Shown: one piece after another, positions 46,873 through 63,681 of the stretch
Layout: every line of letters starts with the position of its first letter
How positions within the stretch are numbered: position 1 is the stretch's first letter
From: Escherichia phage Es2
Sequence record: OR515477.1
DNA: 64,000 nucleotides
Direction: 5' to 3' (one strand)
Position numbers and translations under genes: made by a program
Notes under the pieces: generated by a model
The model's input: the letters and a program-made list of their open reading frames with translations, nothing else
Told to the model about the DNA's origin: nothing
Databases searched by the model: none

Positions 46873-47736
46873 ATGAAAAAAGAATTTAATGTACATAAAA
46901 CACTAGTAGTACCTGATGATGTTAACTTATTCTTTGTTGGTGATATTCATGGATGCAACGATTTACTAGAAGATGCACTACAATTAGCTGGATATAACGG
47001 CAAGAAAGATTGCGTTGTATGCGTGGGAGATTTAATTGATCGAGGCACGCAGAACCTACAAGTTTTAGCTAAATTCCTGTATAATCCACGCTTTATCAGT
47101 GTCCGTGGTAATCATGACCAATTTATGATTGTGGGAGATTGGGCTAACTGGATGTATAACGGTGGTATGTGGGCTATGAATGAACTAGATGCAGATACCA
47201 TTAAAAATATTGCCGAAGACATGGCTGAAAAAATGCCAGTATTCCTAACTGTTAAACATCGCGGCAAGAAGTATGGTGTTGTTCATGGTGGTGTACCTTT
47301 TACATACAAAGAATGTGGTAATGAAGTAGAAACCCCAGTATGGGATAATCTTATTGCACAAGTAGAAGCAGCTAAGGAAGACCCACACGACCATCCTGGA
47401 TACCATGTTGAGCCATACTTATGGGATCGAGATGTAATCCAAGAAATAGGTTTTCACTTAGCTAAAAATGGTGAAGAACACTCATATTTCCAGCGTTATG
47501 CAGGGTTTAAAGAGAAATACATGGTAGAAGTACCTCCAGTTAATGGGGTAGACTTTGTATTTCATGGACATACCGGAGTACCTTACCCGATTTTATACCA
47601 GAACCGTGTTTATCTTGATACTGGCGGTGTTTTCAACGGGCAGTTGACGGTTGCGCAAGTTAATGATGAAACTGGGAAAATCACAACATTTACCACGCTT
47701 CGAGAAGATAGCTGTGGTGTACAGAGGATTCTTTAA
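46873..47736 (+). CDS. Ser/Thr protein phosphatase (calcineurin-like metallophosphoesterase)
   Basis: GDIHGC, GDLIDRG and RGNHD motifs. Confidence 0.75.
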   Translation: MKKEFNVHKTLVVPDDVNLFFVGDIHGCNDLLEDALQLAGYNGKKDCVVCVGDLIDRGTQNLQVLAKFLYNPRFISVRGNHDQFMIVGDWANWMYNGGMWAMNELDADTIKNIAEDMAEKMPVFLTVKHRGKKYGVVHGGVPFTYKECGNEVETPVWDNLIAQVEAAKEDPHDHPGYHVEPYLWDRDVIQEIGFHLAKNGEEHSYFQRYAGFKEKYMVEVPPVNGVDFVFHGHTGVPYPILYQNRVYLDTGGVFNGQLTVAQVNDETGKITTFTTLREDSCGVQRIL

Positions 47737-48023
47737 TGAATGATAGAATGAAAGAAGTACAAGAAGAATTACGAGCAATGCGTATTGATGCCCTTCGTTG
47801 GAGAGCATTAGTTAATGCTTTCGTCAAAGGAGATACCGGAGTAATATATTCTGGAATAGCAGTCAATTTTTGTTTTAATTCTCCTGCTGAAATAGAGATA
47901 GAAACAAGGCTTACTACCTACCTTAATGAGGTAGACCTTAAGGAAGGAGAGACTCCCGGGGAGTTTAAAACTAGAGTATTAACTACCTGGGTTGATAATT
48001 TAATACAAAAAAGGAGTAAGTGA
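47736..48023 (+). CDS. hypothetical protein
   Basis: 95 aa ORF, ATGA coupling. Confidence 0.45.
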   Translation: MNDRMKEVQEELRAMRIDALRWRALVNAFVKGDTGVIYSGIAVNFCFNSPAEIEIETRLTTYLNEVDLKEGETPGEFKTRVLTTWVDNLIQKRSK

Positions 48024-48613
48024 TGAAGGTTAAATTCTGGTCAGACTTGCACTTAGACCACCCTGGAGCACTACGTTTCCGTCCGTGGTTTAAGAACATG
48101 AAAGAGCACGATGAGTATATTCTAGATACTTTATCCAAGCATATTGGTAAACGAACAAAACTTATTTTGCTAGGAGATATTGCAGTAGGTCGTGAAGGTC
48201 TGGCCAAATTAAAGTCGGTTATCCACAATGTCCCTAATCAACTCATTATGGGTAATCATGATGCGGAGCGTCAAGGACTGAGTATTAGGGACTTAGCGGA
48301 AGTTTATGACGATATTCAAGCTCTAGGCAAACAGACTGGAGGTGGCAAAAAGTTTTGGCTATCTCACTGCCCTTTGCACCCTAATGAACTTCGTGGCAAA
48401 CTAAATATTCACGGACATGTACATACTACTTCTTTACGTGATCCACGTTATATTAATGTCTCATTTGAAATGAGTAGAACTCCAATTCCACTAGAGGATA
48501 TTGTGTCTGGTAAGTTTACTAGTTACGATAGAGTGGTTAATTGTACTACCGGCGAGGTATTACAAATAGGAGAAGACGTAGCTGCTGTATTGCGTGGCGA
48601 TATAAATGTCTAA
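48020..48613 (+). CDS. calcineurin-like metallophosphoesterase (second copy)
   Basis: LGDIAVGREG, GNHD and HGHVH motifs. Confidence 0.6.
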   Translation: MMKVKFWSDLHLDHPGALRFRPWFKNMKEHDEYILDTLSKHIGKRTKLILLGDIAVGREGLAKLKSVIHNVPNQLIMGNHDAERQGLSIRDLAEVYDDIQALGKQTGGGKKFWLSHCPLHPNELRGKLNIHGHVHTTSLRDPRYINVSFEMSRTPIPLEDIVSGKFTSYDRVVNCTTGEVLQIGEDVAAVLRGDINV

Positions 48614-48721
48614 GTATATAGCTAGGGCTATTATTAAACGAATTATACAAGTGATAGCAATACTTATAGTTATTTGTATTGCCATTGGCACAGGACTAGG
48701 CATTTTAATTAAAAGTTTTAT

Positions 48722-48750
48722 TTGCTAAAATGCCTAAATTTCTGTATAAT
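48722..48750 (+). promoter_or_regulatory. early-type sigma70 promoter
   Basis: TTGCTA, 17 bp, TGTATAAT. Confidence 0.6.
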
Positions 48751-48780
48751 TACTTTATAAATTGATGAGAAGGAATAAAA

Positions 48781-49212
48781 ATGAACAAAGTCGATAAAGC
48801 CTTAGTTTTCGCAGCAGCAGATAAGTTTGAACAAGTCAAGGCAACTTTCCGAACCTTGTTCCAGTCTTACGTTCAAGATAAGTCTAATCCTATTTCTGAA
48901 CGCTTAATGGTTTGGGAATGTCATGCTTGCAATGCCCTGCTAATTGCGGATTATCGTAGTGATATAGATAAAGATCTCTGTGAAATCCTCATCCCTGAGG
49001 AAGCAGAACGTTATCAGCTAATCTCTTTTCAAGATTTGGCAGAGCACATAATCCCTGATGATCTTTGGGATAAATACTATGGTGATCCTGAAGATGAGGG
49101 GATGACTCCAGAAGCATGTATTGAGTTAATCTGTAAGGATCATCCTGAAATTGCAGAAAAATTTGAAAAAGTTTTTGCTTCTGAGTTCTCTGGTGTTGTT
49201 AACGATTGGTAA
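48781..49212 (+). CDS. hypothetical protein
   Basis: 143 aa ORF after promoter 48722-48750. Confidence 0.5.
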   Translation: MNKVDKALVFAAADKFEQVKATFRTLFQSYVQDKSNPISERLMVWECHACNALLIADYRSDIDKDLCEILIPEEAERYQLISFQDLAEHIIPDDLWDKYYGDPEDEGMTPEACIELICKDHPEIAEKFEKVFASEFSGVVNDW

Positions 49213-49229
49213 GTAATTAAAAAATTCAG

Positions 49230-49258
49230 TTGCTTTAAGCCTTAAAATTCTGTATAAT
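49230..49258 (+). promoter_or_regulatory. early-type sigma70 promoter
   Basis: TTGCTT, 17 bp, TGTATAAT. Confidence 0.6.
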
Positions 49259-49290
49259 AAGTTCATAAATTAATGAGAGAGGAAATTCTA

Positions 49291-49542
49291 ATGGAAAACA
49301 TGACTAAAAATGAAATGGCTAACGTTCTGGCAATTCTCCTCGACATGCAGGGTTTTGAGGGTCAGCTCATGAAGATGTCTATTCCGGCAATGAAAAAGAT
49401 GTATGATTCTCTGAATAAGAATGCTATGGCATTCAACCTTGCAAAACAGGAAGCACGTTTTGCTAAAGAGCATCAAGCGACTGCCGAACGTCGTGCAGCA
49501 TCTTTTGAGCGTGAAGTTAAGCAACTGAAAGGTAAGAAATAA
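49291..49542 (+). CDS. hypothetical protein
   Basis: ATG 49291 with GAGAGG RBS after promoter 49230-49258. Confidence 0.5.
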   Translation: MENMTKNEMANVLAILLDMQGFEGQLMKMSIPAMKKMYDSLNKNAMAFNLAKQEARFAKEHQATAERRAASFEREVKQLKGKK

Positions 49543-49564
49543 GGACTAAGGGAGTATATAATTA

Positions 49565-49846
49565 ATGTTGATTGAAATTCTTATTGGGTTACTAGTTCTT
49601 ACTACCCTAGTAGCGATTGGCGGAGTTATTGGGATTGTGAATGCACGAAAAAGCATGGAAAATATGCTTATTACTAATGATGGACTACACCACCGTTTGC
49701 TAGAGCAAGAGCAGGATATTGAATTAGCACAAAGACGCTCGGATATTCTTAAGGAAAAATTAAATAATATAGAAGCAATAGTTGGGAATAATAAATTACC
49801 TGCTAAAGTAATGCGTACACAGATAATCACGGAGATTAAAAAATGA
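49565..49846 (+). CDS. membrane-anchored protein
   Basis: N-terminal TM (ILIGLLVLTTLVAIGGVIGIV), 93 aa. Confidence 0.5.
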   Translation: MLIEILIGLLVLTTLVAIGGVIGIVNARKSMENMLITNDGLHHRLLEQEQDIELAQRRSDILKEKLNNIEAIVGNNKLPAKVMRTQIITEIKK

Positions 49847-50088
49847 TGATGTTTATTCTAGCGTTTTATCTAATTGTGGTTGGTGTACTGGTTACTAAGT
49901 ATCACACATGGACACCAAAGAATGTAGGTAAGGTAGCACTGTTTGTTATCCCAGTTCCACTTATTATCTTTTCTATGTTACTGGTGATGTTAATTGGTAA
50001 AGTAACAAAAACTGATATTAAACGTATTGCTGATGAATTGCAACAGTCTTGTGATATGGTAGAGGATATTATTAAAGATGAAGCTTAA
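49843..50088 (+). CDS. small membrane protein
   Basis: 81 aa, two hydrophobic segments. Confidence 0.5.
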   Translation: MMMFILAFYLIVVGVLVTKYHTWTPKNVGKVALFVIPVPLIIFSMLLVMLIGKVTKTDIKRIADELQQSCDMVEDIIKDEA

Positions 50089-50404
50089 TTTTAATGAATT
50101 AAATACCTTACATGAGATATTACAGTTTGTGAATAATAATATTAGTATTCCAGATGATACTCTAGAAGTTCTCATGTTAATCGAGAAAAAGGTAGGAATT
50201 GAAATTGAGGATTCTTGGAAACCACTTTCTGTATTAACACCACTTAATATAAAAGTGATAGTTAAAAATATTGATACTGGTGAAGAGTGTGAAATGATTC
50301 GTAAAGAACTAGCTGATAGTTATTCACCAAAGTCTGTAGTAATGTACCATGATGATACTCCTAAGGTTCTACAGACAGCTAATTACGTATGGCGTCTACC
50401 ATGA
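50078..50404 (+). CDS. hypothetical protein
   Basis: 108 aa ORF. Confidence 0.5.
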   Translation: MKLNFNELNTLHEILQFVNNNISIPDDTLEVLMLIEKKVGIEIEDSWKPLSVLTPLNIKVIVKNIDTGEECEMIRKELADSYSPKSVVMYHDDTPKVLQTANYVWRLP

Positions 50405-50503
50405 TTGATCTAGTACCAGTTACTGCGGGGCTAATAGCATTGCTAGTATTAGCAGTATTCATTATTGTGGAGCAGGCCAAAGTAATAAGGAGACTTAAAA
50501 ACA

Positions 50504-50704
50504 ATGATAAAACGTCTTGTTTATCAGGCACCAAAGATTGTAACTGAGTATTTTGTATTACTGCCTCAGATTGTATTTCTAACAGCATTATTTAATATAC
50601 TTTTTCGACATCTAGGAATAACGGAAAATATCTTCTACACTTCTGAACTACTTCCCTTTATGTACGAAGGCATCATCGTGGCAATTAACGGAGTTCGTAA
50701 ATGA
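50504..50704 (+). CDS. hypothetical protein
   Basis: 66 aa ORF. Confidence 0.4.
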   Translation: MIKRLVYQAPKIVTEYFVLLPQIVFLTALFNILFRHLGITENIFYTSELLPFMYEGIIVAINGVRK

Positions 50705-51162
50705 CAGCACTACAACAACTACAGAATTACTGGTTTGATAACCAATTTAACGATCTCTTTATCCAGTTGTTTGTCGAAACGAACGGACGCTTCAACTACC
50801 GATTCTTTAATAAGTTTCACGAAACAAAATTCTCCCATACAGAAATTAACGCAGCAATTCAGGACTTAACAGGTTCTAAGGTAATTCAGTATCGTGAAGT
50901 AGACTTTACACCAGATTGTTTTGGATTTGAATTGTTTAAGAAAGCGTATAAATTTGGCAAGTTTGAGGATGCTCGTCAATGGGTTCATGATTTCTGGTAT
51001 AATACCGATATTGTTCCTAGTCGTGTGCTGATTCTTAACTGGATTGCTAAACAACACCCACCTAAAGCTCAATCGTCCTTCTTACCAACTGACACAGGAA
51101 ACCTTTACCATGACAGAAAAGAAAAATCCATTGCTGGAGCAGATGAAGGAATGGGAGAGTAA
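50701..51162 (+). CDS. hypothetical protein
   Basis: 153 aa ORF, ATGA coupling. Confidence 0.5.
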   Translation: MTALQQLQNYWFDNQFNDLFIQLFVETNGRFNYRFFNKFHETKFSHTEINAAIQDLTGSKVIQYREVDFTPDCFGFELFKKAYKFGKFEDARQWVHDFWYNTDIVPSRVLILNWIAKQHPPKAQSSFLPTDTGNLYHDRKEKSIAGADEGMGE

Positions 51163-51481
51163 TATTGAAACTGGTCTAGTAGACGGAGAAGATATTGTTA
51201 ACTCTATGCTAGAAGTAACAGTGGATAATATTAACCCTATTTTGGCCGGGGAAACCTCAGATCTTATAGGACTTTCTAGTACATTCGATTCTTTGGCTAA
51301 ATTAGCCTTAGATAACGAAGAGATAACCAAAGAAGATCTCGCTACAGCTATGAATATGGCTATTAACGCCTATATTGGTAAACGTACTGATGAACTCGAT
51401 AAACAAATCAAAAAGCGTGATACAACGTTAGATCTTATGGAAATGGCCACTATGTTAAGAAGTGGTAAACAACTTCATTAA
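51110..51481 (+). CDS. hypothetical protein
   Basis: Start MTEKKNPLLEQ (ACAGGAAACC upstream); terminator follows. Confidence 0.45.
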   Translation: MTEKKNPLLEQMKEWESNIETGLVDGEDIVNSMLEVTVDNINPILAGETSDLIGLSSTFDSLAKLALDNEEITKEDLATAMNMAINAYIGKRTDELDKQIKKRDTTLDLMEMATMLRSGKQLH

Positions 51482-51487
51482 TTTTAG

Positions 51488-51518
51488 GGGCCAGGACTTA
51501 ATTGTTCTGGCCTTTTGT
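51488..51518 (+). terminator. rho-independent terminator
   Basis: GGCCAGG...CTGGCC hairpin followed by TTTTGTG. Confidence 0.6.
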
Positions 51519-51535
51519 GTTTCAAGGAACTCCAA

Positions 51536-51739
51536 ATGCAAGTATACGTCCTTACTAGAGACATAAATGAGTATAATCAGGATGGTGAGTATTTTGTAAA
51601 AGTGTTCGCTGAAAAGCCAAGTAAACAACAACTATTAGACGCTGGAGTACCAGAAGACCAGGCTAAGTATATACTACAAGATAAAGAATTTACTGGAGAT
51701 GCTTACGAATGCTTCCATCTTAGTTGTGAGAATATCTAA
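51536..51739 (+). CDS. hypothetical protein
   Basis: 67 aa ORF. Confidence 0.45.
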   Translation: MQVYVLTRDINEYNQDGEYFVKVFAEKPSKQQLLDAGVPEDQAKYILQDKEFTGDAYECFHLSCENI

Positions 51740-51740
51740 T

Positions 51741-52187
51741 ATGAGAGAAAAAGTAAATGAATTATTAATCGAGGAAGCGAACAACTTCCCAATAAATAGG
51801 TTTATCAAATCGGATGGATCTATTAATAGAACTAAGATTAAGCAGTTACACCCCGACTTTCAACAAGAAGCGCTAAATCTTATATTTGTCAAGAAAGCTG
51901 TTGCAGCTCATGGGGTTTTCTTCGGGTATGAGCGTGTAAATTATAAGACAATGCAACAGCAGGTTGAGATATATTGTCCAGACCACAAGGGTTATTACTG
52001 GCAAACTGCTAGATCTCATTTAGAAGGGCATGGTTGTCGACTGTGCGCACACAAGGTTGTGCAGCGTATCACGGATTATGGAACTTATACCGTACCAGCA
52101 TGTTATCATAAATTTGTAATTGACGATAACCATATAGTTTGGTATAATAAGTTTTCAAAGTTAAGAATGGAGATAAATAGTGAGTAG
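51741..52187 (+). CDS. hypothetical Cys/His-containing protein
   Basis: 148 aa; CPDHKGYYW...HGCRLCAHK motif. Confidence 0.45.
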   Translation: MREKVNELLIEEANNFPINRFIKSDGSINRTKIKQLHPDFQQEALNLIFVKKAVAAHGVFFGYERVNYKTMQQQVEIYCPDHKGYYWQTARSHLEGHGCRLCAHKVVQRITDYGTYTVPACYHKFVIDDNHIVWYNKFSKLRMEINSE

Positions 52188-52470
52188 CTACATTGTATGG
52201 TCAAATCCATTAGCAGCACTTAGTAATAAATTATTTAAAACAGAATGGGGTAAAAACGAAATAGACTTAGGTAGTCGCCCAATACCAAATAAGCACCCAT
52301 TAGTACCCGAGCTATATAGGGTAGTTATAAATGGCACAGAGTATTTGGTCGATAAATTTGACAGAAAACGTTTACTAGAGGGTATCTACGATAATTCTAT
52401 ATCAATAAATGAATTAGTGGAACATGCCCAAATATATGATAAAAGCTGGATGTTAATATGGAAATCATAG
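52180..52470 (+). CDS. hypothetical protein
   Basis: 96 aa ORF. Confidence 0.45.
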   Translation: MSSYIVWSNPLAALSNKLFKTEWGKNEIDLGSRPIPNKHPLVPELYRVVINGTEYLVDKFDRKRLLEGIYDNSISINELVEHAQIYDKSWMLIWKS

Positions 52471-52691
52471 CAATTATTTTAGTAGTTATGTTATTCATCG
52501 TAGTACTTGTATCTTTTGCTATTATGAGCAGAGCTAGAGAACTAGCAGAAGATCTAACAAAATTACGTGGTGAAGTGGCCGCCCTTAAACTACAGCGTGA
52601 GGCTTTAAAGTTGTTTGTAGTTCAGGGTAGCGTAGCTCATACACCAGAAGACTTCATCATATACCTCAAACGCTATATGGGGATTAAATAA
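52458..52691 (+). CDS. small membrane protein
   Basis: 77 aa with N-terminal TM. Confidence 0.45.
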   Translation: MEIIAIILVVMLFIVVLVSFAIMSRARELAEDLTKLRGEVAALKLQREALKLFVVQGSVAHTPEDFIIYLKRYMGIK

Positions 52692-52876
52692 TGGAAACAC
52701 TTTTTCTTTTAATGCTCGTAGGTTCGTTAGTAGTTATATTAGCACTCCTATTAATCTGTAATATTCTTAATAATAAGAATTTAGGACTAAAGTGTGAGAA
52801 CCAAATCCTTAATCGTGAACTTGAGCAATATAACCTAGCAGCCCATAAACTATTAGACAAACTGGAGAATAAATAA
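52691..52876 (+). CDS. small membrane protein
   Basis: 61 aa with N-terminal TM. Confidence 0.45.
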   Translation: METLFLLMLVGSLVVILALLLICNILNNKNLGLKCENQILNRELEQYNLAAHKLLDKLENK

Positions 52877-53475
52877 TGTTCACACAACAACCTATTCAAG
52901 TAGTACCAGACCATGAACTGAACACATGGGATTATAGCTTTAAAGATTTAACTGCTACTGTACAATTCAAATCTATGAAGCTAACATTTGCACACACTGA
53001 CCTTAGAGCATGTAAAGATCTTGAAGGTAAGCTAGAAGATGCTCGTAAGATTTTTGGCAAGGCTCGCATCCCGGCTGATAACCTGATTAATGCACTGATC
53101 GATGCAGGATACAAACTCGTGAAGGCTGAGGTTAACCGTCCTAGTACTCCAGTGACTATTAGAGATCCGTGGCAATCAGGGCCAATCGCAATGCTAAATA
53201 AATCATCGGATTTGCACAATGTTCCATGTGGCGGTACGCTGTCGTCTAATCAATCCTATCGAGTTGGGGAAGATTATGGGCCTTCTATACAGTTGAAACA
53301 TACTCAAGAAGCTCTTGAGTCTGACATGAAAAGCGTAGCACCGGGGAACTCTGGAGTTTCTAGGAATTCTGTCTATACTGTTCATTTAAACAATCCTGGT
53401 AATCATGGAAGTTTAGAGGATGCTATTATGGAGGCGTTGGGAGCTGTCATTAATGAAGATAAGAGAGGTAATTAA
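52876..53475 (+). CDS. hypothetical protein
   Basis: 199 aa ORF. Confidence 0.5.
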   Translation: MFTQQPIQVVPDHELNTWDYSFKDLTATVQFKSMKLTFAHTDLRACKDLEGKLEDARKIFGKARIPADNLINALIDAGYKLVKAEVNRPSTPVTIRDPWQSGPIAMLNKSSDLHNVPCGGTLSSNQSYRVGEDYGPSIQLKHTQEALESDMKSVAPGNSGVSRNSVYTVHLNNPGNHGSLEDAIMEALGAVINEDKRGN

Positions 53476-53822
53476 TGATATTTGGTAAAACAAAAATAGC
53501 CCCTGCTGGGGAAAATTTAATTACTCTTAGCCTCTACTATAAGGATGAAAATGTAGAAATAGAAACATTAGAGTATGTTCTTATAAATACTAATAAGCCT
53601 AAAATAGGAGAGTTACTTGGTATAATCTCTAATATCTCTGATAGGGAAGATATTCCAAGTATAACACCAAAGAATATAGCTCACTTAGCACAACAATTAG
53701 GAATCTTGTGGTATAAAGTAGATCTTCCAGCTAAAGAAAGAACCAAAGGAACCTTTGCAGAGATCGCAAGAAAACCTAAGTCAGAAAAGAAAGAAACAGG
53801 GGAGCAAGCGTCTGATATATGA
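53475..53822 (+). CDS. hypothetical protein
   Basis: 115 aa ORF. Confidence 0.5.
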   Translation: MIFGKTKIAPAGENLITLSLYYKDENVEIETLEYVLINTNKPKIGELLGIISNISDREDIPSITPKNIAHLAQQLGILWYKVDLPAKERTKGTFAEIARKPKSEKKETGEQASDI

Positions 53823-54532: not shown

Positions 54533-54547
54533 AAGTTAACAAAAAGT

Positions 54548-56378: not shown

Positions 56379-56582
56379 TCATAAATCCTCCTCCGGTAGT
56401 CGGTGCGTGATTTTTTCCTCCTCTCCGTAGGAATCCACTAAATGCTGATAATAACCATCGTGATCATAAATCACTTTATCATATTCGCCACGCTCGACCG
56501 CTTGTCGGTTTTCCGGCGTATCTGGCACGTAAAAAACATCAACCATTGTACTGATTTTGGTTACAACAATTTTATTGCTCAT
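56379..56582 (-). CDS. hypothetical protein
   Basis: 67 aa; last gene of the inverted-repeat-bounded block; GGAG RBS. Confidence 0.45.
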   Translation of the reverse strand: MSNKIVVTKISTMVDVFYVPDTPENRQAVERGEYDKVIYDHDGYYQHLVDSYGEEEKITHRLPEEDL

Positions 56583-56607
56583 AATAACGCTCCGTTATTA
56601 TATAATC

Positions 56608-56952: not shown

Positions 56953-57079
56953 TTGACAGCCTCCCAATTAGATAGCCAGATAATAACATAAAGATCCCCA
57001 ATGAAAGGGGGTCATTTTTAAATAGGGTGGCGGTAAAACCGCCAGCCATTGCAAGGATGATAACAATAACGCTTTTCAT
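56942..57079 (-). CDS. small hydrophobic peptide
   Basis: 45 aa (MKSVIVIILAMAGGFTATLF...), ATGA coupling to the upstream gene; below track cutoff. Confidence 0.35.
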
Positions 57080-57288
57080 AGTACCCCACGAAACGCAGCG
57101 TAAAAGGTGGCAAAATGTTTAACTGTTTCAGCTATCACGTTGCCGCGCTTGTCAAATTTCTTTTCTGTAACACGAAAGGCATTCTTATTACGTGCTACAT
57201 ATTCAATTTTACAATCTTCCCGCTCGAACGTGTTAACATCCACCAGCTTAAAGCCTTTCGAACGTGCAAGAGAAACATTGCGGATCAT
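57076..57288 (-). CDS. hypothetical protein
   Basis: 70 aa; AGGAGAATAA RBS. Confidence 0.5.
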   Translation of the reverse strand: MIRNVSLARSKGFKLVDVNTFEREDCKIEYVARNKNAFRVTEKKFDKRGNVIAETVKHFATFYAAFRGVL

Positions 57289-57290
57289 TT

Positions 57291-57446
57291 TTATTCTCCT
57301 TTACTAGTCATGCAGCCCAGCAGATAAGAAAATGCAGCGATACCCGCGCCAATAATAACCGCGTGAACACCGAAAGCTATTGCAAAAAGGGATAAAATAG
57401 CGCCCAAGATACCTGCTAGAATAGCTCGAAAAATAACCATTTTCAT
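57291..57446 (-). CDS. small hydrophobic peptide
   Basis: 51 aa (MKMVIFRAILAGILGAILSLFAIAFGVHAVIIGAGIAAF...), GGAGA RBS; below track cutoff. Confidence 0.35.
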   Translation of the reverse strand: MKMVIFRAILAGILGAILSLFAIAFGVHAVIIGAGIAAFSYLLGCMTSKGE

Positions 57447-57486
57447 TCTCCTAGTTTGCGGGGCGAAAGTAACGCCCCGTTATTAC

Positions 57487-57717
57487 TTACATTAAAACAA
57501 TTTTTGCCGCTTGTTTTTTAGTACAGTGTTCCGCTTTCAGGGTATCCAGCAAAAAGCCGGCCGTTTGCTGATCGATTTTATCGGCGTTGTATAGTTCTTG
57601 GATGGTGTTATAAGTTTTAGCAATGCCGAACTCCTGCACCATTTCATGAATGATGGCGCGATTAGATACCCAGCCTTGCGCGGTGAACAGATGACTAGCA
57701 GAAGAATAAGCAACCAT
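57487..57717 (-). CDS. hypothetical protein
   Basis: Start MVAYSSASH after GGAGGT; 76 aa. Confidence 0.5.
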   Translation of the reverse strand: MVAYSSASHLFTAQGWVSNRAIIHEMVQEFGIAKTYNTIQELYNADKIDQQTAGFLLDTLKAEHCTKKQAAKIVLM

Positions 57718-57781
57718 TTTAAACCTCCAAATTTTTGGGAAAATTTTCAACCGTCCTCAAACGGTGTAAAGGCATTATAAC

Positions 57782-57810
57782 AAAAAAGGTCGCCATAAAA
57801 GGCGACCTTT
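57782..57810 (-). terminator. rho-independent terminator (hairpin usable on both strands)
   Basis: AAAGGTCGCC-ATAAAA-GGCGACCTTT with A/T runs on both sides. Confidence 0.65.
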
Positions 57811-57835
57811 ACAAAACTTTACATTAGATTATTTA

Positions 57836-58846
57836 TTACTCGTTTTCGGTGTTAGTGGTAAAAGTAGAAATATCGATACCTTTTACCATTTCATCAATCA
57901 TTTCAGCGATGTTAAAACTTTGCACCATTTCCAACATTGCCGCTTCCATAGCTGCCCCTGCTACCGCTTTCGCTTTCTGGTTGCTTGGGGCATACTGGTC
58001 AACCGCTACGCTCAGCAGGTTGGCAATTACTACTCGACCGATAGGCGTATCAATATAACCTTTAATCATGAACGGTGCTTTTTTAGCCGCTACTTTCGTA
58101 ATTTGAGTCAGTGCAATTTTACCCGCTTCCAGTTTTGCAGCGTTTACAACGGCGGATTTATTAGCGGCAACGATGTTAGCAATCTTGGTCATGGTATTTT
58201 TTCCTTTATTTTCAGTGATTTGAGTATTAACGCTTTGAGTGTTAGAATTTACAGCATGGTTTTCTACGCTGTCAATAATCTGATCTTCATCTTTCCAGAA
58301 AGAAAAACCAGCGCTTTCTATATCCCCATCATAAATATACGGGTATAGCTCCCGTGGTAACAAAAAATTACCGTCGCCATCAAAAGCCATTATACCGGTA
58401 TATTGAGATCCGTCGTTATCCGGCTTATACCATCCAGCGGGTAAATACTTCCAGATAACATCTAAAAATCCCTCAATGCTAGAAAGTCCATTTATCAGAT
58501 CAAGCCCAATAAGCTCAAAACCATTTATATTAAATGATTGACGGCCTGAATTGCTATGATACGCAACAATAGTATTGCCCTGCGCAACAATAAAATCGGT
58601 ATCCGGCCCCGCTCCCCTGCCCGTAAAGATATGGCAATCCCGATTATGTAAAACTAGCGTTGCCCCTTGCTTATATAAGGGTAGAAAACTATCCATATCA
58701 TAGGCGTCATATTCATCAAAAAAGTTTTGATGAATAGTTTCAACCTTGTTAATAAAATGTTTAATGCTGGTTGACTTGCTACCGTCCAGCAGGTTACGCA
58801 ATGCACCTTTTAAGACGGTTGCGTTATCTGGTTTATAAAGCCTCAT
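57836..58846 (-). CDS. hypothetical protein (336 aa)
   Basis: AGGAGG RBS; GC-richer codon usage than the surrounding phage genes; no recognisable motif. Confidence 0.55.
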   Translation of the reverse strand: MRLYKPDNATVLKGALRNLLDGSKSTSIKHFINKVETIHQNFFDEYDAYDMDSFLPLYKQGATLVLHNRDCHIFTGRGAGPDTDFIVAQGNTIVAYHSNSGRQSFNINGFELIGLDLINGLSSIEGFLDVIWKYLPAGWYKPDNDGSQYTGIMAFDGDGNFLLPRELYPYIYDGDIESAGFSFWKDEDQIIDSVENHAVNSNTQSVNTQITENKGKNTMTKIANIVAANKSAVVNAAKLEAGKIALTQITKVAAKKAPFMIKGYIDTPIGRVVIANLLSVAVDQYAPSNQKAKAVAGAAMEAAMLEMVQSFNIAEMIDEMVKGIDISTFTTNTENE

Positions 58847-59112
58847 TTGTTCGGCCTCCTCGTTAATCGGTGAGTGAATGATAAAGGTATTTTCTTTCTA
58901 GGGGCAAATATTATTTTACCTTTTTATTTTCTTTGCCTAACTCCTAGTTTTATGCTAATCGCGCAGCGGTACAGTAAAGAGCAAAACACGGCGAAGCCAC
59001 CAGGGCGACGGGTGAAGGCTTTACTTTAATATTACCCCACTGCATTTAGCTCGTTAGAAAGCGATTTAGGCCGCTTAAAATTGATTGCAGTTGTTAACAC
59101 TACCTTTTTACC

Positions 59113-59242
59113 CTGTATATTTATACAGTAGGATAACCTGTGGATAAGTCTGTGTAAAAGTCCTTATATCGCCGCCTATCATGTCAAGTTATTTTACAAA
59201 ATGTATAAGTCTGTGGATAACTTAAATAATAGTGTTTCTCAC
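59113..59242 (+). repeat. right composite inverted repeat (IR-B' and IR-A') with two TGTGGATAA DnaA-box-like sites
   Basis: Reverse-complement match to 55881-56010. Confidence 0.75.
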
Positions 59243-59410
59243 TAACTAATTTATGCAGTTATTATATCGTAAAATATAGTTAGTTGGCTAATAGGATTTT
59301 AAAGTGATTATGAGTCCGCTAATTAAACCTGAAAAACTCATTAGCTAGTCTGCTAATCATTTTGATATAATATAATAGAGATTAAATTAATAACATAAGG
59401 AAACAATTAG

Positions 59411-59929
59411 ATGCCTAAATATAAACATATAGATTATGACCTTTTTAATAGTTACTTTTATTATGATGAAACATCGTTATCATTTTTACGCTGGCGAGAA
59501 GATCATGCCATCGCTGGTGGTTTAAATGGTAATTATTGGCAAGTTGAATTATTAGATAAAGGACAATTCAAAGTACATAGAATTATTTTTTGTATAATGA
59601 ATGGTGGTATAGATAGCGAGCTAATGATTGATCATATTGATCGTAACCCCCGTAATAATAACATTTGGAATCTTCGCGCGGTTGATAGTTCCCAGAATAA
59701 CTATAATAAGACTCCTAGTGAGTATGAAAACTATAAGCGTGCTAATGGTATCCCTAGAAACATTTACGTTAATAAAATTCGCCCCCGTGATAGTTTCGGG
59801 CGTGATTATTTAACTGCTCAAATTAAGAATCCTATTACTAACAAGCGTGTTAGTAAGTCTGGTTATGATTTACAAGAGTTATTATTATGGCTTGAAGCTA
59901 AAAAAGCTGAATTCGGAATTGTCAATTAA
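59411..59929 (+). CDS. HNH endonuclease
   Basis: DHIDRNPRNNNIWNLRAV HNH motif; AAGGAAAC RBS. Confidence 0.65.
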   Translation: MPKYKHIDYDLFNSYFYYDETSLSFLRWREDHAIAGGLNGNYWQVELLDKGQFKVHRIIFCIMNGGIDSELMIDHIDRNPRNNNIWNLRAVDSSQNNYNKTPSEYENYKRANGIPRNIYVNKIRPRDSFGRDYLTAQIKNPITNKRVSKSGYDLQELLLWLEAKKAEFGIVN

Positions 59930-60875
59930 TTTATTTTATAAATTAACTCGTTTAGTCTTGATTTTTAAAAGTCAAGACCTTTTTCAACTATTTTTCAATT
60001 TTGCGGTTGTTAAATATTTGTTAAACCGAAAATAAGCCGCCTAAAACGCCCCAGAACGCGATGAAAGTTTTAGTCATGCCATTGCATTGCCTACCCTCGT
60101 TTATCGCTACCACGAGCTTTTTAGATTTTGTCAAGTAGGGGAAAGCAAATATAAATGAAAAAATTACTTGCCTATCTGCTATGTTTTGTGGTATTCACGC
60201 GCCCGTTTCTTTTAATTTTAGTGTGCCGCGCCCTAGTCGCCGCACGCCGTCCGGTGAATCGTGTCTTTACGTTTCTTTACAAAAATAAGGTTGCGCCATT
60301 TTCGGGAATCCCCTATTATTTATCACGTAGGGCGGCAATGACGAACTACACGGCGGGAAGTTTACCGCCACGCTCTTTAAAAATTGGGTATATCTTAAAG
60401 CCTATCGGCGGTAAACTTATTCATTATAAGGAATCGACGATATGAAACAAACGCTTTTGATAACTGGTAAACCAGCTAAAAAATTAGATGGTACTACTAA
60501 AAAATTGTTGACAGTAGCGCAAAGATCCATAAGATATAGATTCACGCAGTACAAGAAAGGCCGCCAGCAAGGTTTAGAAATGATCTGGCGAAATATTATG
60601 ATTGACCTGAAAGAAAATCATAAAAAACTGCAAAAAATTGTTTGACACCCTAGCCGATAGGCTTTAAGATGTACCCAGTTCGATGAGAGCGATAACTTGA
60701 TACAATTTGACGGTCGGTGCTTACCATAATGCATCCCGCCCCCTAACTGGGATATAGCGGCCTGAGTGGAGTTCTTTAAATTGATTATAATGGCGAGCGG
60801 ATTGTTACTTATTACCTGCTACTATTTTCTAGTAGGTAATGCGAAACAATCCCCTAAATAACTGGAGTTTATACT

Positions 60876-61127
60876 ATGCAAAACGTTACTAATGCGCCGA
60901 AAATTGGTCAATCCGTTTTTATCCCTTTCGTTACCAAAACGGATGAATTAACCGGAAAAGCCGAACGTATTAAAGGTGCGGCGCTTATGCCGTTCGATAC
61001 AATCGACGCGGTATACGCTGAAAATGAACGCAGTAACAACGGCAAGCCGATTTATAACGTTCGCGTTAAATCCGGCGACGTTGTAAAGGTTGTTCAACGC
61101 AACGAAAAATGGGAAGCTGTACTGTAA
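60876..61127 (+). CDS. hypothetical protein
   Basis: 83 aa ORF with TGGAG RBS. Confidence 0.5.
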   Translation: MQNVTNAPKIGQSVFIPFVTKTDELTGKAERIKGAALMPFDTIDAVYAENERSNNGKPIYNVRVKSGDVVKVVQRNEKWEAVL

Positions 61128-61225
61128 TCTAGTGTTAACTTTATATTCCCCTGAAATATGGGGAATATAACGATTAACATTAGTTAATCATAATCCCTTA
61201 AATTAAACTAATAGGAGTTTATATC

Positions 61226-61633
61226 ATGACTAACGCAAAAACCGCAAAATTCGCATGGAATGAAGAAAACACCCAAAAAGCTGTTACCATGTACCAGCAG
61301 TTAATCAACGAAAACGGTTTAGATTTCGCAAATAGTGACGGGCTGAAAGAGATTGCAAAAGCAGTAGGCGCGGCTTCTCCCGTATCCGTTCGCTCAAAAT
61401 TGACCAGTGCAAAAGCCTACCAGAAAAGCGATAAGCCGCGTAAAGTTGGCGGCGGCAGTTCTGTACGCAAAGCGCATTATGTGCGTGTTATTGCTAAACA
61501 TGCCATTGATTCCGGCATTATCAAAGACGCTGACGATCTGGCATCACTGGAAAGTGCAAAACTTGAAACGCTGGACGCGGTAGCGCAATTGCTAGGCGTT
61601 GCCGATGAAGTGAAACAAGCCGCAGGCGAATAA
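61226..61633 (+). CDS. hypothetical protein
   Basis: 135 aa ORF with AGGAG RBS. Confidence 0.5.
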   Translation: MTNAKTAKFAWNEENTQKAVTMYQQLINENGLDFANSDGLKEIAKAVGAASPVSVRSKLTSAKAYQKSDKPRKVGGGSSVRKAHYVRVIAKHAIDSGIIKDADDLASLESAKLETLDAVAQLLGVADEVKQAAGE

Positions 61634-61722
61634 TAGTTATACATTGCCCTTCCTAGTGGGAGGGCAATAATATAACTGTTTAGCGATAGTTATTTTCTTC
61701 CCTTAAATCAGGAGTTTTAAAA

Positions 61723-61920
61723 ATGATTTTCTTTCCTACTGAATCATTAATTTTAGGCTTGTTTATTATGGCGGCCTCATTATTGTTCGCTTATTTTCAA
61801 AATGATTTAGATTCATATTATTTTAAACGTAAATCTAAGTTAGCAAAGCGTTTAGGTCTGATTTGTTTTATTGCCGCCGTTGCTTGTGGTGTTAGTTCTA
61901 GCCTTATGCCTTTAAATTAA
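61723..61920 (+). CDS. small membrane protein
   Basis: 65 aa, two hydrophobic segments. Confidence 0.45.
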   Translation: MIFFPTESLILGLFIMAASLLFAYFQNDLDSYYFKRKSKLAKRLGLICFIAAVACGVSSSLMPLN

Positions 61921-62016
61921 TGTTGCAAATTATAACGCCTATTATTCAAGGCGTTATATTTGGCAATATTTGCCAATAACAAACGTTTTTTAATCCCTTT
62001 AATGGAGTTTATTACT

Positions 62017-63681
62017 ATGATTATTTCCGCAGAAAAACAAACCGTTATCCTGAAAATGGCCGCTGACTTTAATTTCTATGGTAAACGTCTGCGCGCCACT
62101 AAACTGGAGGTCTGCGACGATATATCAAAAGCGGTCTACGATACAACAAAACACTCGACCGCCATTTGTGATTGGCTGGAAGCAAATAAACCAGTTAAAC
62201 CAAAAGCTGCAAAAGTAGCAAAAGCTATTAAAAACGATGAGCGCCCCGAAGCGGCTGGGATCGTTTCTAGCACGGTTGAACAGTGGGAAGTAAAACAAGG
62301 CAAACGCTTTATTATTACGTCGATTCAGAATAATACTTTCCCGCATAAAAACTTTTTGGCCTCGCTTGAACAGTATGCTAAATACATCGGCGCTGATTTG
62401 CTTGTTTCTAAGTATATTTATAATAAAAACGGCTTCCAAAATGGTGAAGGTGCGGATGGAATCAAATATGATTCCGCGTTCGATAAGTATATTTGCAGCA
62501 AAAACGTGTTTTTAAACAACCGCCGTTTTGCTTTCATGGCTGAAATTAACGTTTTGCCTACCGCAGATTATCCGCTTTCTGGATTCGCTGAAACTGCAAC
62601 GGCGCTTAATCTTGAAGGTCTGGCAATTGGTCACGCTAAAATCACCGCCGAAAGCGTGCCAGCTTTAAAAGGTGAAGTAGTACGCCGCATGTACTCAACC
62701 GGAACGGCAACGCTAAAAAACTACATTCAGCAGAAAGCAGGGCAAAAAGCGGAAGCGCTGCATAACTTCGGTGCGCTGATTGTTGAGTTCGACGAAGACG
62801 GTGAGTTTTTTGTACGCCAGCTTGAAACAATGGACGAAAGCGGGGTGTTTTATGATCTGAATGTTTGCGCTACTCCCGCAGGATGCTATGAAACATCGGG
62901 GCATGTTTTAGGTTTACAATATGGCGACATCCACGCAGAAAAATTAGATGATGATTGTGCCGTTGCGTCATGGGCTGGCGAAAATAGCTTGCTTGATATT
63001 CTTAAACCAAAATATCAGTTTATCCATGACGTTCACGATTTTACATCTCGCAATCATCATAATCGTGCGTCCGGTGTATTCCTAGCGAAACAGTACGCCG
63101 CCGGACGTGATAAAGTTCTGGATGATCTTATCGATACGGGGCGCGTGCTGGAATCAATGGAACGTGATTTTAGTCAAACGATCATTGTTGAATCGAATCA
63201 CGATTTGGCGCTATCCCGTTGGCTGGATGATCGTAATGCTAACATTAAAGACGATCCAGCAAACGCCGAACTATATCACCGCCTGAATGCTGCAATTTAC
63301 GCGGCAATCGGTGAACACGACGAAACGTTTAACGTGTTAGATTATGCGCTGCGCAAGGTTGCAGGTTGCGAGTTTAACGCCATTTTCCTAACAACTGACC
63401 AATCATTTAAAATTGCAGGCATCGAGTGTGGCGTACACGGTCACAACGGCATTAACGGAAGCCGTGGCAATCCTAAACAGTTTAAGAAATTGGGCAAACT
63501 GAACACGGGGCATACGCATACGGCAAGCATTTACGGCGGGGTATACACCGCTGGCGTGGCTGGTAGTCTGGACATGGGTTACAACGTTGGCGCGTCAAGC
63601 TGGACGCAAACGCATTTAATTACCTATGCAAACGGTCAGCGCACTTTGATTGACTTTAAAAACGGTAAATTCTTTGCGTAA
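62017..63681 (+). CDS. A1: A1-like pre-early protein with calcineurin-like phosphoesterase motifs
   Basis: GDIHAE, ESNHD, GHNG and GHTHT metallophosphoesterase motifs; size ~554 aa; gene symbol assigned by analogy to T5 A1 from memory. Confidence 0.5.
   Translation: MIISAEKQTVILKMAADFNFYGKRLRATKLEVCDDISKAVYDTTKHSTAICDWLEANKPVKPKAAKVAKAIKNDERPEAAGIVSSTVEQWEVKQGKRFIITSIQNNTFPHKNFLASLEQYAKYIGADLLVSKYIYNKNGFQNGEGADGIKYDSAFDKYICSKNVFLNNRRFAFMAEINVLPTADYPLSGFAETATALNLEGLAIGHAKITAESVPALKGEVVRRMYSTGTATLKNYIQQKAGQKAEALHNFGALIVEFDEDGEFFVRQLETMDESGVFYDLNVCATPAGCYETSGHVLGLQYGDIHAEKLDDDCAVASWAGENSLLDILKPKYQFIHDVHDFTSRNHHNRASGVFLAKQYAAGRDKVLDDLIDTGRVLESMERDFSQTIIVESNHDLALSRWLDDRNANIKDDPANAELYHRLNAAIYAAIGEHDETFNVLDYALRKVAGCEFNAIFLTTDQSFKIAGIECGVHGHNGINGSRGNPKQFKKLGKLNTGHTHTASIYGGVYTAGVAGSLDMGYNVGASSWTQTHLITYANGQRTLIDFKNGKFFA

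What the first reader, a model, noticed from the sequence alone, without database searches (positions are those of the whole stretch)
46873..63681. Three calcineurin-like phosphoesterase genes
Two adjacent metallophosphoesterase paralogs (46873-47736 with GDIHGC/GNHD; 48020-48613 with GDIAVG/GNHD/HGHVH) and a large pre-early A1-like protein with the same motif class (62017-63681) are present. Retaining three suggests distinct substrates (phosphoprotein, nucleotide, DNA).
Basis: partly seen in the sequence, partly recalled or inferred. Interest (0 to 1): 0.35.

Follow-up and report, generated by a model that had tools for sequence, protein, structure and literature searches.

The report
Three known T5 phosphoesterase genes
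The window comes from a T5-like phage, and its three metal-dependent phosphoesterase genes are real but are already annotated in phage T5; they are distant relatives with separate jobs rather than duplicated copies, and one of them (A1) is the enzyme that destroys the host chromosome.

Summary
The window is a Tequintavirus (T5-like) genome segment.

- **Gene 1 (46873-47736)** is 97% identical to T5.035, a lambda-phosphatase-like Ser/Thr phosphatase (Pfam Metallophos 3.8e-17; PDB 1G5B 4e-32).
- **Gene 2 (start more likely ATG 48023; ends 48613)** is a small phosphoesterase of the aq_1665 / phrog_547 type.
- **Gene 3 (62017-63681)** is pre-early protein A1, 95% identical to T5 A1.

A1 matches no Pfam, NCBIfam or PDB sequence. 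Even so, all five metallophosphoesterase motifs are invariant across 38 homologues. Its C-terminal domain aligns profile-to-profile with the mycobacteriophage Bxb1 gp47 phosphoesterase family (Prob 95%, E 2.7e-8, above all shuffles). Its predicted fold matches phage metallophosphoesterases (E 1.4e-8, TM 0.64-0.67).

- The three are not recent paralogs. They belong to three separate clades.
- Genes 1 and 2 are separated by a 95-aa ORF.
- T5-like genomes carry a fourth, SbcD-like member just outside the window.
- "DNA" for A1 is backed by published T5 genetics. "Phosphoprotein" for gene 1 rests on homology only. "Nucleotide" for gene 2 is untested.

The finding is already known and of low interest. 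The A1-gp47 link and the swapped gene 2 cassette are small additions.

The parts
46873..47736 (+). Gene 1: lambda-PP / NinI-like (PPP-type) Ser/Thr phosphatase, 287 aa, 32.6 kDa. It is the orthologue of T5.035. Motif residues are D24/H26, D53..D56-R57, N80-H81, H138, R186 and H233. It carries about 65 extra residues (roughly 155-220) compared with lambda PP.
   Evidence: Pfam Metallophos 3.8e-17; phrog_246 4.4e-92; PDB 1G5B 4.2e-32 in two segments; 97% identical to T5.035; invariant residues in 34 homologues; mass.
47736..48023 (+). Intervening 95-aa ORF of unknown function (phrog_14979). It is absent from T5 itself and forms part of a replaced cassette.
48023..48613 (+). Gene 2: small single-domain metallophosphoesterase, 196 aa, 22.1 kDa. 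Motif residues are D8/H10, G51-D52, G77-N78-H79-D80, H115 and H130-G-H132-x-H134. It is a divergent allele (52% identity) of T5.034.
   Evidence: Pfam Metallophos 2.6e-4 and Metallophos_2 4.5e-5; phrog_547 3.9e-57; PDB 1xm7 0.0043; invariant residues in 34 homologues; comparison with T5.034; start-codon context.
62017..63681 (+). Gene 3: pre-early protein A1, 554 aa, 61.2 kDa, 95% identical to T5 A1.
   Evidence: (phrog_1745, 4.9e-245).
62017..62277 (+). A1 N-terminal three-helix module (residues 1-60) plus a low-confidence linker (61-87). This part varies across the family; some homologues have recognisable HTH domains here instead.
   Evidence: AF2 model; Pfam HTH_23 / HTH_7 / CENP-B_N in homologues; mean identity 26%.
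62278..62904 (+). A1 middle alpha/beta domain (residues 88-296). It is conserved (TSxQNNT, ILPTA..PLSG, STGTxTxxNY motifs) and has no detectable relative.
   Evidence: hhalign against the metallophosphoesterase families was not significant.
62905..63678 (+). A1 C-terminal metallophosphoesterase (nuclease-type) domain, residues 297-554. Predicted metal ligands and their codons: D304 (62926-62928), H306 (62932-62934), D338 (63028-63030), N394-H395 (63196-63201), H474 (63436-63438), H499 (63511-63513), H501 (63517-63519).
   Evidence: Invariant columns; AF2 pLDDT 88; hhalign against the gp47 family Prob 95.2, E 2.7e-8, with shuffle controls; Foldseek BFVD E 1.4e-8, TM 0.64/0.67; Foldseek PDB top 20 all metallophosphoesterases but weak.
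46534..46559 (+). Terminator-like hairpin upstream of the ORF81 - gene 1 - ORF95 - gene 2 block. It marks the start of this early transcription unit.
   Evidence: T5 annotates a terminator and a promoter at the homologous position.
48722..48750 (+). Promoter-like site (TTGCTA-17-TATAAT) just downstream of gene 2. It is homologous in position to T5 promoter P-F30 and marks the start of the next unit.
61226..61633 (+). A2 homologue (135-aa DNA-binding protein), the genetic partner of A1 in second-step DNA transfer.
   Evidence: ORF; synteny with annotated A2 in NBSal005 and T5.

Best explanation
The window is a T5-like (Tequintavirus) genome segment. Its three metallophosphoesterase genes are orthologues of annotated T5 genes. 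They come from three different clades of the superfamily and act at different times on different targets. They are not duplicates of one another.

**A1 (pre-early, in the first-step-transfer / terminal-repeat DNA).** A1 has three parts: a variable N-terminal helical module, probably for DNA or partner binding; a conserved middle domain of unknown role; and a C-terminal nuclease-type metallophosphoesterase domain. Its two-metal site is inferred to be D304, H306, D338, N394, H474, H499 and H501, with H395 assisting. The inferred activity is hydrolysis of DNA phosphodiester bonds. This destroys the host chromosome within minutes, and Dmp then dephosphorylates the released dNMPs. The domain is homologous to the actinophage Bxb1 gp47 / A10ZJ24 Gp48 family, one member of which is an early host-DNA-degrading nuclease.

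**Gene 1 (early).** This is a lambda-PP-type phosphatase with all catalytic residues intact. Most likely it removes phosphate from Ser/Thr (or His/Tyr) on a host or phage protein. A published paper states that the classical T5 gene C2 mutation maps to this ORF, which ties it indirectly to control of RNA polymerase.

**Gene 2 (early, same transcription unit).** This is a minimal metallophosphoesterase with an intact site. My best guess is a phosphodiesterase acting on nucleic-acid ends or nucleotide-derived molecules within the replication / nucleotide-metabolism programme. Its locus is an exchangeable cassette.

**What is shown and what is inferred.** Gene identity, motif conservation, homology and fold class are shown here. 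A1's sufficiency for DNA degradation in vivo comes from the literature. Direct catalysis by A1 and the substrates of genes 1 and 2 are inferred.
For: **Identity of the window and genes.**
- About 91-92% nucleotide identity to Tequintavirus genomes with the same gene order.
- Protein identity to T5 of 97%, 52% and 95% for genes 1, 2 and A1.

**A1.**
- Five motifs are invariant in 38 sequences and sit at strand tips in a confident AF2 model.
- hhalign against a 22-sequence gp47-family alignment gives Prob 95.2, E 2.7e-8, score 61.4. Controls score 15.7 (reversed), at most 21.5 (60 column shuffles) and at most 37.8 (60 block shuffles).
- With extension, motif I also aligns.
- Foldseek against BFVD gives 21 hits at E<=1e-3. 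After two A1 homologues, every named hit is a phage metallophosphoesterase, a PolD-small-subunit-like protein or an SbcD-like nuclease.
- One of those hits, Streptomyces phage BRock, is also a tblastn relative of Bxb1 gp47.
- Literature: A1 is a "predicted metallo-phosphatase", essential and sufficient for chromosome degradation. A10ZJ24 Gp48 is a motif-dependent phosphodiesterase and DNase that breaks host DNA early in infection. The Bxb1 gp47 fold is nearest to Mre11 and DP1.

**Gene 1.**. The C2 mapping to a 32-kDa Ser/Thr phosphatase ORF is from PMC7472727; the computed mass is 32.6 kDa.

**Gene 2.**. Homologues sit in phage replication modules.

**Not paralogs.**
Against: - No in vitro nuclease activity has been published for A1. 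The preprint itself keeps open the possibility that A1 activates a host nuclease.
- Bxb1 gp47 itself is reported to lack phosphoesterase activity (cited in PMC12287305), so the fold does not guarantee catalysis.
- A1 has no hit to Pfam Metallophos. Its matches to solved structures are weak (best E 0.013, TM <=0.41).
- The metal-site geometry of the model could not be inspected with these tools.
- Gene 1 also resembles ApaH-type Ap4A hydrolases (5e-16), so a nucleotide substrate is not excluded.
- Gene 2 has no characterised close relative. PdeM scores 24.8 bits against a cut-off of 150.
Confidence: 0.72

Rival explanations
1. The three genes are paralogs that arose by duplication within the T5 lineage and then took on different substrates.
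For: They share the superfamily motifs, and genes 1 and 2 lie in one transcription unit. BLASTP finds a 45-residue motif II-III match between genes 1 and 2 at E 0.002.
Against: - There is no similarity outside the motifs.
- Family profiles of genes 1 and 2 reach only Prob 53% over 39 columns. A1 against either is null.
- Each has far closer relatives outside the genome: 1G5B at 4e-32, phrog_547 and aq_1665, and the gp47 family.
- The gene 2 locus is exchanged as a cassette between T5-like phages, independently of gene 1.
Confidence: 0.04
2. A1 is a catalytically inert or regulatory metallophosphoesterase-fold protein, like the B subunits of eukaryotic polymerases or the excision-factor role of Bxb1 gp47. 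On this view it causes host DNA loss by recruiting or activating a host nuclease such as RecBCD, and drives second-step transfer through protein-DNA contacts.
For: No in vitro nuclease activity has been reported. A1 is pleiotropic: it associates with RNA polymerase and the membrane and forms a heterodimer with A2. Bxb1 gp47 is reported to lack phosphoesterase activity and to moonlight. Human POLD2 appears among the weak PDB fold matches.
Against: - Every canonical metal ligand is invariant across 38 sequences down to 41% identity. Inactive metallophosphoesterase-fold proteins typically lose these residues (own knowledge).
- A1 alone is sufficient for chromosome degradation in E. coli.
- The related Gp48 is a motif-dependent DNase in vitro.
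Confidence: 0.15
3. Gene 1 is not a protein phosphatase. It would be an ApaH-like hydrolase of dinucleoside polyphosphates or Np4-capped RNA, or of another nucleotide alarmone.
For: NCBIfam ApaH models hit at 5.2e-16 and 1.1e-8, and PrpE at 3.6e-8. ApaH structures hit at 1.6e-9.
Against: Lambda PP is a far better match (4.2e-32, covering both halves of the protein), as are PrpA and PrpB (1e-27, 2e-23). The GDxxDRG arginine and the WxR arginine typical of the lambda-PP group are invariant. All ApaH hits cover only the N-terminal half.
Confidence: 0.15
4. Gene 2 is an anti-defence enzyme that degrades a host immune signalling nucleotide. That role would explain why its locus is swapped between related phages.
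For: The alleles are bimodal (>=80% or about 52% identity, with almost nothing between). The gene is replaced precisely together with an extra ORF, while the flanks stay 94-96% identical. The family is widespread in unrelated virulent phages.
Against: There is no similarity to known anti-defence phosphodiesterases or to PADLOC models. Homologues sit in replication modules next to polymerases and exonucleases. Cassette exchange is common for many T5 early genes (own knowledge).
Confidence: 0.12

Closest known systems
Bacteriophage T5 A1 (T5.004), T5.035 and T5.034
   Same: The window genes are their orthologues: 95% and 97% identity for A1 and gene 1, with the same order, strand and temporal regions.
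   Different: Gene 2 is a 196-aa allele only 52% identical to the 173-aa T5.034. Here a 95-aa ORF separates it from gene 1, whereas in T5 the two genes abut.
Lambda Ser/Thr protein phosphatase (NinI / ORF221, PDB 1G5B) and E. coli PrpA/PrpB
   Same: Same PPP-type motif set (GDxHG, GDxxDRG, GNHD/E, H, GH). E 4.2e-32 to 1G5B over both halves of the protein.
   Different: About 65 extra residues lie between the two aligned halves. Scores are far below the PrpA/PrpB equivalog cut-offs (97.5 against 326), so gene 1 is not their orthologue.
Aquifex aeolicus aq_1665 (PDB 1xm7) / phrog_547 small phage phosphoesterases
   Same: Single-domain protein of about 190 aa with the same motif spacing. phrog_547 at 3.9e-57.
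   Different: Only a weak sequence match to the solved structure (0.0043, N-terminal two thirds). The whole group has no known substrate.
Mycobacteriophage cluster-A metallophosphoesterases: Bxb1 gp47 (excision factor), L5 gp54, A10ZJ24 Gp48 (phrog_221)
   Same: The A1 C-terminal domain aligns with them over about 200-230 columns, with all five motifs in register (Prob 95%, E 2.7e-8). They share structural neighbours. Both are expressed early and are toxic. Gp48, like A1, breaks host genomic DNA.
   Different: - A1 is not a member of phrog_221 (E 0.44).
- A1 carries two extra N-terminal domains.
- Motif I is DxH in A1 and DxQ in the gp47 family.
- The hosts and phage lineages are unrelated.
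- The gp47 family functions as a serine-integrase directionality factor, which has no counterpart in T5.
Mre11/SbcD nucleases and the PolD small subunit DP1
   Same: Nuclease-type metallophosphoesterase fold. These are recurrent fold neighbours of the A1 C-terminal domain (3auz, E 0.087, TM 0.41; phage SbcD-like and DP1-like models at E 1e-4 to 7e-4). Published structural comparisons for A1 and for gp47 name the same pair.
   Different: No Rad50/SbcC-type ATPase partner or polymerase lies next to A1; its neighbours are A2 and a small membrane protein. Similarity is at fold level only. The genuine SbcCD-like pair of T5-like phages is a different locus.

Membership tests
Calcineurin-like metallophosphoesterase superfamily (Pfam PF00149 / PF12850) | Five motifs in order: DxH, GDxxD(R), GNH[D/E], H, GHxH | tested here: met
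   - Gene 1: D24xH26, G52D53xxD56R57, G79N80H81D82, H138, G232H233.
- Gene 2: D8xH10, G51D52, G77N78H79D80, H115, G131H132xH134.
- A1: GD304xH306, H337D338xxD341, S393N394H395D396, H474, G498H499xH501. The catalytic D/H/N residues are invariant in 38 sequences; G498 and D396 are nearly invariant.
Calcineurin-like metallophosphoesterase superfamily (Pfam PF00149 / PF12850) | Match to the Pfam Metallophos profile above its gathering score | tested here: inconclusive
   Gene 1 passes clearly (63.8 bits against 21.5). Gene 2 passes barely (21.9 against 21.5). A1 does not: no hit for the full protein, for its C-terminal domain, or for 22 family members at E<=10.
Calcineurin-like metallophosphoesterase superfamily (Pfam PF00149 / PF12850) | Beta-alpha-beta-alpha-beta core with the motifs at the C-terminal ends of strands; fold similarity to known members (tested for A1) | tested here: met
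   - In AF2 models (pLDDT 88-89) each motif lies at a strand tip.
- Foldseek BFVD: E 1.4e-8, TM 0.64/0.67 to a 254-aa phage metallophosphoesterase, with 21 hits at E<=1e-3.
- PDB hits are weak (best E 0.013), but the top 20 are all superfamily members.
- This rests on predicted structures only.
Calcineurin-like metallophosphoesterase superfamily (Pfam PF00149 / PF12850) | Dinuclear metal centre and phosphoester hydrolysis | not testable with these tools
Lambda-PP / NinI-like PPP phosphatases (gene 1) | Significant full-length similarity to lambda PP, with the catalytic His, Asp, Asn and Arg residues conserved | tested here: met
   1G5B at 4.2e-32, with two segments covering lambda residues 14-155 and 174-217. 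phrog_246 at 4.4e-92. R57, R186, H138 and H233 are invariant.
E. coli PrpA/PrpB equivalogs (gene 1) | Score above the NCBIfam equivalog cut-off | tested here: not met
   97.5 bits against 326, and 83.3 against 332. Gene 1 is a relative, not an orthologue.
PdeM ligase-associated endonuclease, TIGR04123 (gene 2) | Score above the cut-off, and association with an ATP-dependent ligase / Lhr operon | tested here: not met
   24.8 bits against 150. No ligase lies adjacent.
T5 A1 family (phrog_1745) | Full-length similarity and a position in the pre-early (first-step-transfer) region next to A2 | tested here: met
   phrog_1745 at 4.9e-245. 95% identity to T5 A1. The A2 homologue lies at 61226-61633, and the injection-stop-like repeats lie at about 55-56.2 kb.
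Bxb1 gp47 / L5 gp54 phage metallophosphoesterases (phrog_221) | Homology of the catalytic domain | tested here: met
   hhalign Prob 95.2, E 2.7e-8, 196-228 columns, above all shuffle controls. Shared structural neighbours.
Bxb1 gp47 / L5 gp54 phage metallophosphoesterases (phrog_221) | Membership proper: a match to the family profile and a single-domain architecture of about 255 aa | tested here: not met
   phrog_221 at E 0.44 for the A1 C-terminal domain. A1 has two further domains. A1 is a sister family, not a member.
Mre11/SbcD nucleases | Adjacent Rad50/SbcC-type ATPase partner | tested here: not met
   A1's neighbours are A2, a 65-aa membrane protein and small ORFs. The SbcCD-like pair of T5-like phages is elsewhere.

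The most novel reading that the evidence does not exclude
T5 A1 and the actinophage gp47/Gp48 metallophosphoesterases may form one ancient and very widespread phage family of early-expressed, nuclease-type enzymes. The A1 side alone comprises at least 2500 clusters at 50% identity and 1134 phage records, in sipho-, myo- and podophages of Proteobacteria and Bacteroidota. The primary job of this family would be to demolish the host chromosome. Its other roles (second-step DNA transfer in T5, integrase directionality in Bxb1) would be secondary recruitments. I found no paper in the searched library that links the two.
Probability: 0.45. Interest if true: 0.45.

Novelty: already known. Interest (0 to 1): 0.2.

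Why it matters
As stated, the finding adds nothing new. T5.034, T5.035 and A1 have been annotated as phosphoesterases, or predicted to be, since the T5 genome was published, and A1's role in host DNA degradation was shown genetically in 2026.

There are two modest additions:
- A statistically supported homology between the A1 catalytic domain and the Bxb1 gp47 / Gp48 family. This gives the still uncharacterised A1 enzyme an experimentally tractable relative, a concrete list of residues to mutate, and support for the direct-DNase model.
- The gene 2 locus is an exchangeable cassette, which makes it a reasonable candidate for host-range or defence-related screening.

Tried and rejected
**Sequence searches with A1.**
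- phmmer and profile searches against PDB returned only spurious hits such as dehydroquinase and designed repeat proteins.
- Pfam at E<=10 on 22 A1 C-terminal domains found no Metallophos hit.

**Profile-profile comparisons.**
- hhalign of A1 against the families of gene 1 and gene 2 gave only short matches around single motifs, none significant.
- As a control, the two bona fide families barely detect each other (Prob 53%), so this negative result says little.

**Fold searches.**
- Full-length A1 against PDB: best E 0.037, diluted by the extra domains.
- C-terminal domain against PDB: the top 20 are all superfamily members, but E >= 0.013.

**Other leads.**
- Is gene 2 the T5 counterpart of Bxb1 gp47? 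No (Prob 0.6%).
- Is Pseudomonas phage tf a direct BLAST bridge between gp47 and A1? No. The hit is a small gp47-like protein, not an A1 homologue.
- Is the A1 middle domain a degenerate second metallophosphoesterase copy? No signal.
- PADLOC defence models: no hits for any of the three.
- A literature search for the phenotype of T5 gene C2 found nothing beyond PMC7472727.

Full report
**What the window is.** Megablast of 46000-64000 finds 554 phage records. The best are Tequintavirus genomes (NBSal005, VSe12, FFH_1, T5_ev219) at about 91-92% identity, with the same gene order. The window runs antiparallel to the canonical T5 map. Window 45002-47740 matches T5 20172-17433, and window 57074-63738 matches T5 8300-1647. 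The T5 left terminal repeat (first-step-transfer DNA) ends at 10219 and contains the injection stop signal at 9140-10149. That places the repeat boundary near window 55.2 kb. A1 is therefore a pre-early gene in the terminal repeat. Genes 1 and 2 are early genes in second-step DNA.

**Checking the observation.** The three ORFs exist as described.
- Gene 1 (46873-47736; 287 aa; 32.6 kDa) hits Pfam Metallophos at 3.8e-17, phrog_246 "NinI-like serine-threonine phosphatase" at 4.4e-92, and the lambda phosphatase structure 1G5B at 4.2e-32.
- Gene 2 hits Metallophos at 2.6e-4 (just above the gathering score), Metallophos_2 at 4.5e-5, phrog_547 at 3.9e-57 and Aquifex aq_1665 (1xm7) at 0.0043. Its start is better placed at ATG 48023. 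GGAG lies 7 nt upstream, this ATG overlaps the stop codon of the upstream ORF, and RefSeq relatives use it.
- A1 (62017-63681; 554 aa) has no Pfam, NCBIfam or PDB sequence match.
- In a crude regular-expression scan of the 142 stop-to-stop ORFs of at least 80 aa, only these three carry both [GS]NH[DE] and GHxH/GH[TS].

**Is A1 a metallophosphoesterase?** Four lines of evidence agree.

1. *Motif conservation.* In 38 homologues (41-94% identity) the canonical motif residues are invariant and in canonical order: G303-D304-x-H306, H337-D338-x-x-D341, S393-N394-H395 (D396 nearly invariant), H474-G475 and H499-x-H501 (G498 nearly invariant). An extra invariant N346-H347-H348 is also present.
2. *Predicted structure.* AlphaFold2 models (full length pLDDT 89; C-terminal domain pLDDT 88) place each motif at the C-terminal tip of a beta-strand in a beta-alpha-beta-alpha-beta arrangement.
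3. *Fold comparison.* Foldseek against solved structures gives only weak scores (best E 0.013, TM <=0.41). However, all top 20 hits for the C-terminal domain are superfamily members: PP2A, PP1, Mre11 and MPPED2. Against predicted viral structures the matches are significant. After two A1 homologues come a 254-aa Streptomyces phage metallophosphoesterase (E 1.4e-8, TM 0.64/0.67) and further phage metallophosphatases. PolD-small-subunit-like and SbcD-like proteins follow. In all, 21 hits have E<=1e-3.
4. *Profile comparison.* A chance pairwise look at Bxb1 gp47 led me to build a 22-sequence gp47-family alignment from IMG/VR loci.
   - hhalign against the A1 C-terminal alignment gives Prob 95.2%, E 2.7e-8, score 61.4 over 196 columns.
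   - Controls score 15.7 for the reversed alignment, at most 21.5 in 60 column shuffles, and at most 37.8 in 60 block shuffles that keep local motifs intact.
   - With extension, motif I (gp47 D10-x-Q12) aligns with A1 D304-x-H306, so all five motifs are in register.
   - The gp47 family in turn links to gene 1's family (Prob 79%, E 1.7e-5) and, more weakly, to gene 2's.
   - Streptomyces phage BRock's protein is both a structural neighbour of A1 and a tblastn relative of gp47.

The classification is also already in the literature: a 2026 preprint calls A1 a "predicted metallo-phosphatase" with structural features of double-strand-break-repair and proofreading nucleases.

**Architecture of A1.**
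- Residues 1-60 form three helices. This part is poorly conserved (26% mean identity), and some homologues have HTH_23, HTH_7 or CENP-B-type domains here instead.
- Residues 61-87 are a low-confidence linker.
- Residues 88-296 form a conserved alpha/beta domain (50% mean identity) with no detectable relative. It shows no similarity to the metallophosphoesterase profiles.
- Residues 297-554 are the catalytic domain.

**Are the three paralogs?** No.
- BLASTP between genes 1 and 2 finds only a 45-residue motif II-III stretch (E 0.002). Comparisons with A1 find nothing.
- Family profiles of genes 1 and 2 reach Prob 53% over 39 columns. A1 against either is not significant.
- Each protein is far closer to proteins elsewhere. 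Together they represent three clades: the PPP / lambda-PP type, the small aq_1665 type, and the nuclease type (gp47 / Mre11 / DP1).
- The count of three is also incomplete. NBSal005 encodes an SbcD-like metallophosphoesterase (Metallophos 1.3e-6) next to an SbcC-like ATPase, about 10 kb beyond the window's left end.

**How they probably work.**

*A1.* Published genetics show that A1 is essential, toxic, and both necessary and sufficient for chromosome degradation. Ribosomal RNA is untouched. The mycobacteriophage relative Gp48 is expressed early. It has motif-dependent phosphodiesterase activity, degrades linear, circular and genomic DNA in vitro, and breaks host DNA in vivo. I infer that A1 itself is a two-metal DNase. 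Direct biochemistry is still lacking, and Bxb1 gp47 is reported to be inactive as a phosphoesterase. A regulatory role therefore remains a rival, at about 0.15.

*Gene 1.* It keeps every lambda-PP catalytic residue, including both arginines, and has an insertion of about 65 residues. PMC7472727 states that the classical T5 C2 mutation maps to a 32-kDa Ser/Thr phosphatase ORF. The computed mass here is 32.6 kDa. A phosphoprotein substrate is the best guess. An ApaH-like nucleotide substrate is the rival.

*Gene 2.* It has an intact site but no characterised close relative. Its homologues sit in phage replication and nucleotide-metabolism modules.

*Transcription unit.* Genes 1 and 2, together with an 81-aa and a 95-aa ORF, lie between a terminator-like hairpin (46534-46559) and the next promoter-like site (48722-48750).

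**Seen along the way.**
- The gene 2 locus is a replaced cassette. Window 47741-48602 has no nucleotide match to T5, while the flanks are 94-96% identical.
- The protein is only 52% identical to T5.034. Its identity distribution across phages is bimodal.
- The A1 family is much wider than Demerecviridae. It comprises 2500 clusters at 50% identity and 1134 phage records, including Vibrio, Flavobacterium, Caulobacter and Alishewanella phages.
- One homologue sits among topoisomerase II, ribonucleotide reductase and dCMP deaminase genes of a large virulent phage.

**Verdict.** The finding itself is already known and ordinary for a T5-like genome. The A1-gp47 homology is a modest new link that makes the direct-DNase model of A1 more concrete.

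Noticed in passing
window 47736-48613: The gene 2 locus is a swapped cassette. A 95-aa ORF (phrog_14979, unknown function) plus a 196-aa gene 2 allele replace the 173-aa T5.034. There is no nucleotide similarity to T5 across 47741-48602, while the flanks are 94-96% identical. The proteins are 52% identical, and the identity distribution across phage records is bimodal.
   Followed up: partly
window 54533-56378 (repeats densest at 55034-56236): A non-coding stretch of about 1.8 kb with seven-copy repeat families of 20-26 nt, long imperfect palindromes, and two TTATC(C/A)ACA DnaA-box-like copies (55902-55925 and 55963-55986). It corresponds to the T5 injection stop signal at the inner end of the terminal repeat.
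   Followed up: partly
A1 homologues outside the window (e.g. L003 10001-11602; phage records): A1-like proteins are far more widespread than Demerecviridae. They form 2500 clusters at 50% identity and occur in 1134 phage records, including Vibrio, Flavobacterium (podophage), Caulobacter phiCbK-like and Alishewanella phages. Many have a recognisable HTH N-terminus in place of the T5-type one. One sits between topoisomerase II and ClpP / ribonucleotide reductase genes of a large virulent phage.
   Followed up: partly
outside the window; NBSal005 NC_048857.1 41608-44404 (L062 5609-8405): T5-like genomes carry a fourth metallophosphoesterase. It is SbcD-like (Pfam Metallophos 1.3e-6), is annotated "recombinase", and lies next to an SbcC-like ATPase.
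   Followed up: yes
window 27428-37912: A cluster of 23 tRNA genes on the + strand, interspersed with small ORFs, as in T5.
   Followed up: no
window 62278-62904 (A1 residues 88-296): A conserved middle domain of A1 with invariant TSxQNNT, PTA..PLSG and STGTxTxxNY motifs. It has no detectable homologue and no similarity to metallophosphoesterase profiles. Its function is unknown.
   Followed up: partly
window 46625-46870 and public records: Annotation noise in public records. The 81-aa ORF upstream of gene 1 is labelled "major head protein" (T5.036 / phrog_7354). A1 is labelled "baseplate wedge protein" in MT577844. Gene 2 homologues are often labelled Ser/Thr phosphatase.
   Followed up: no
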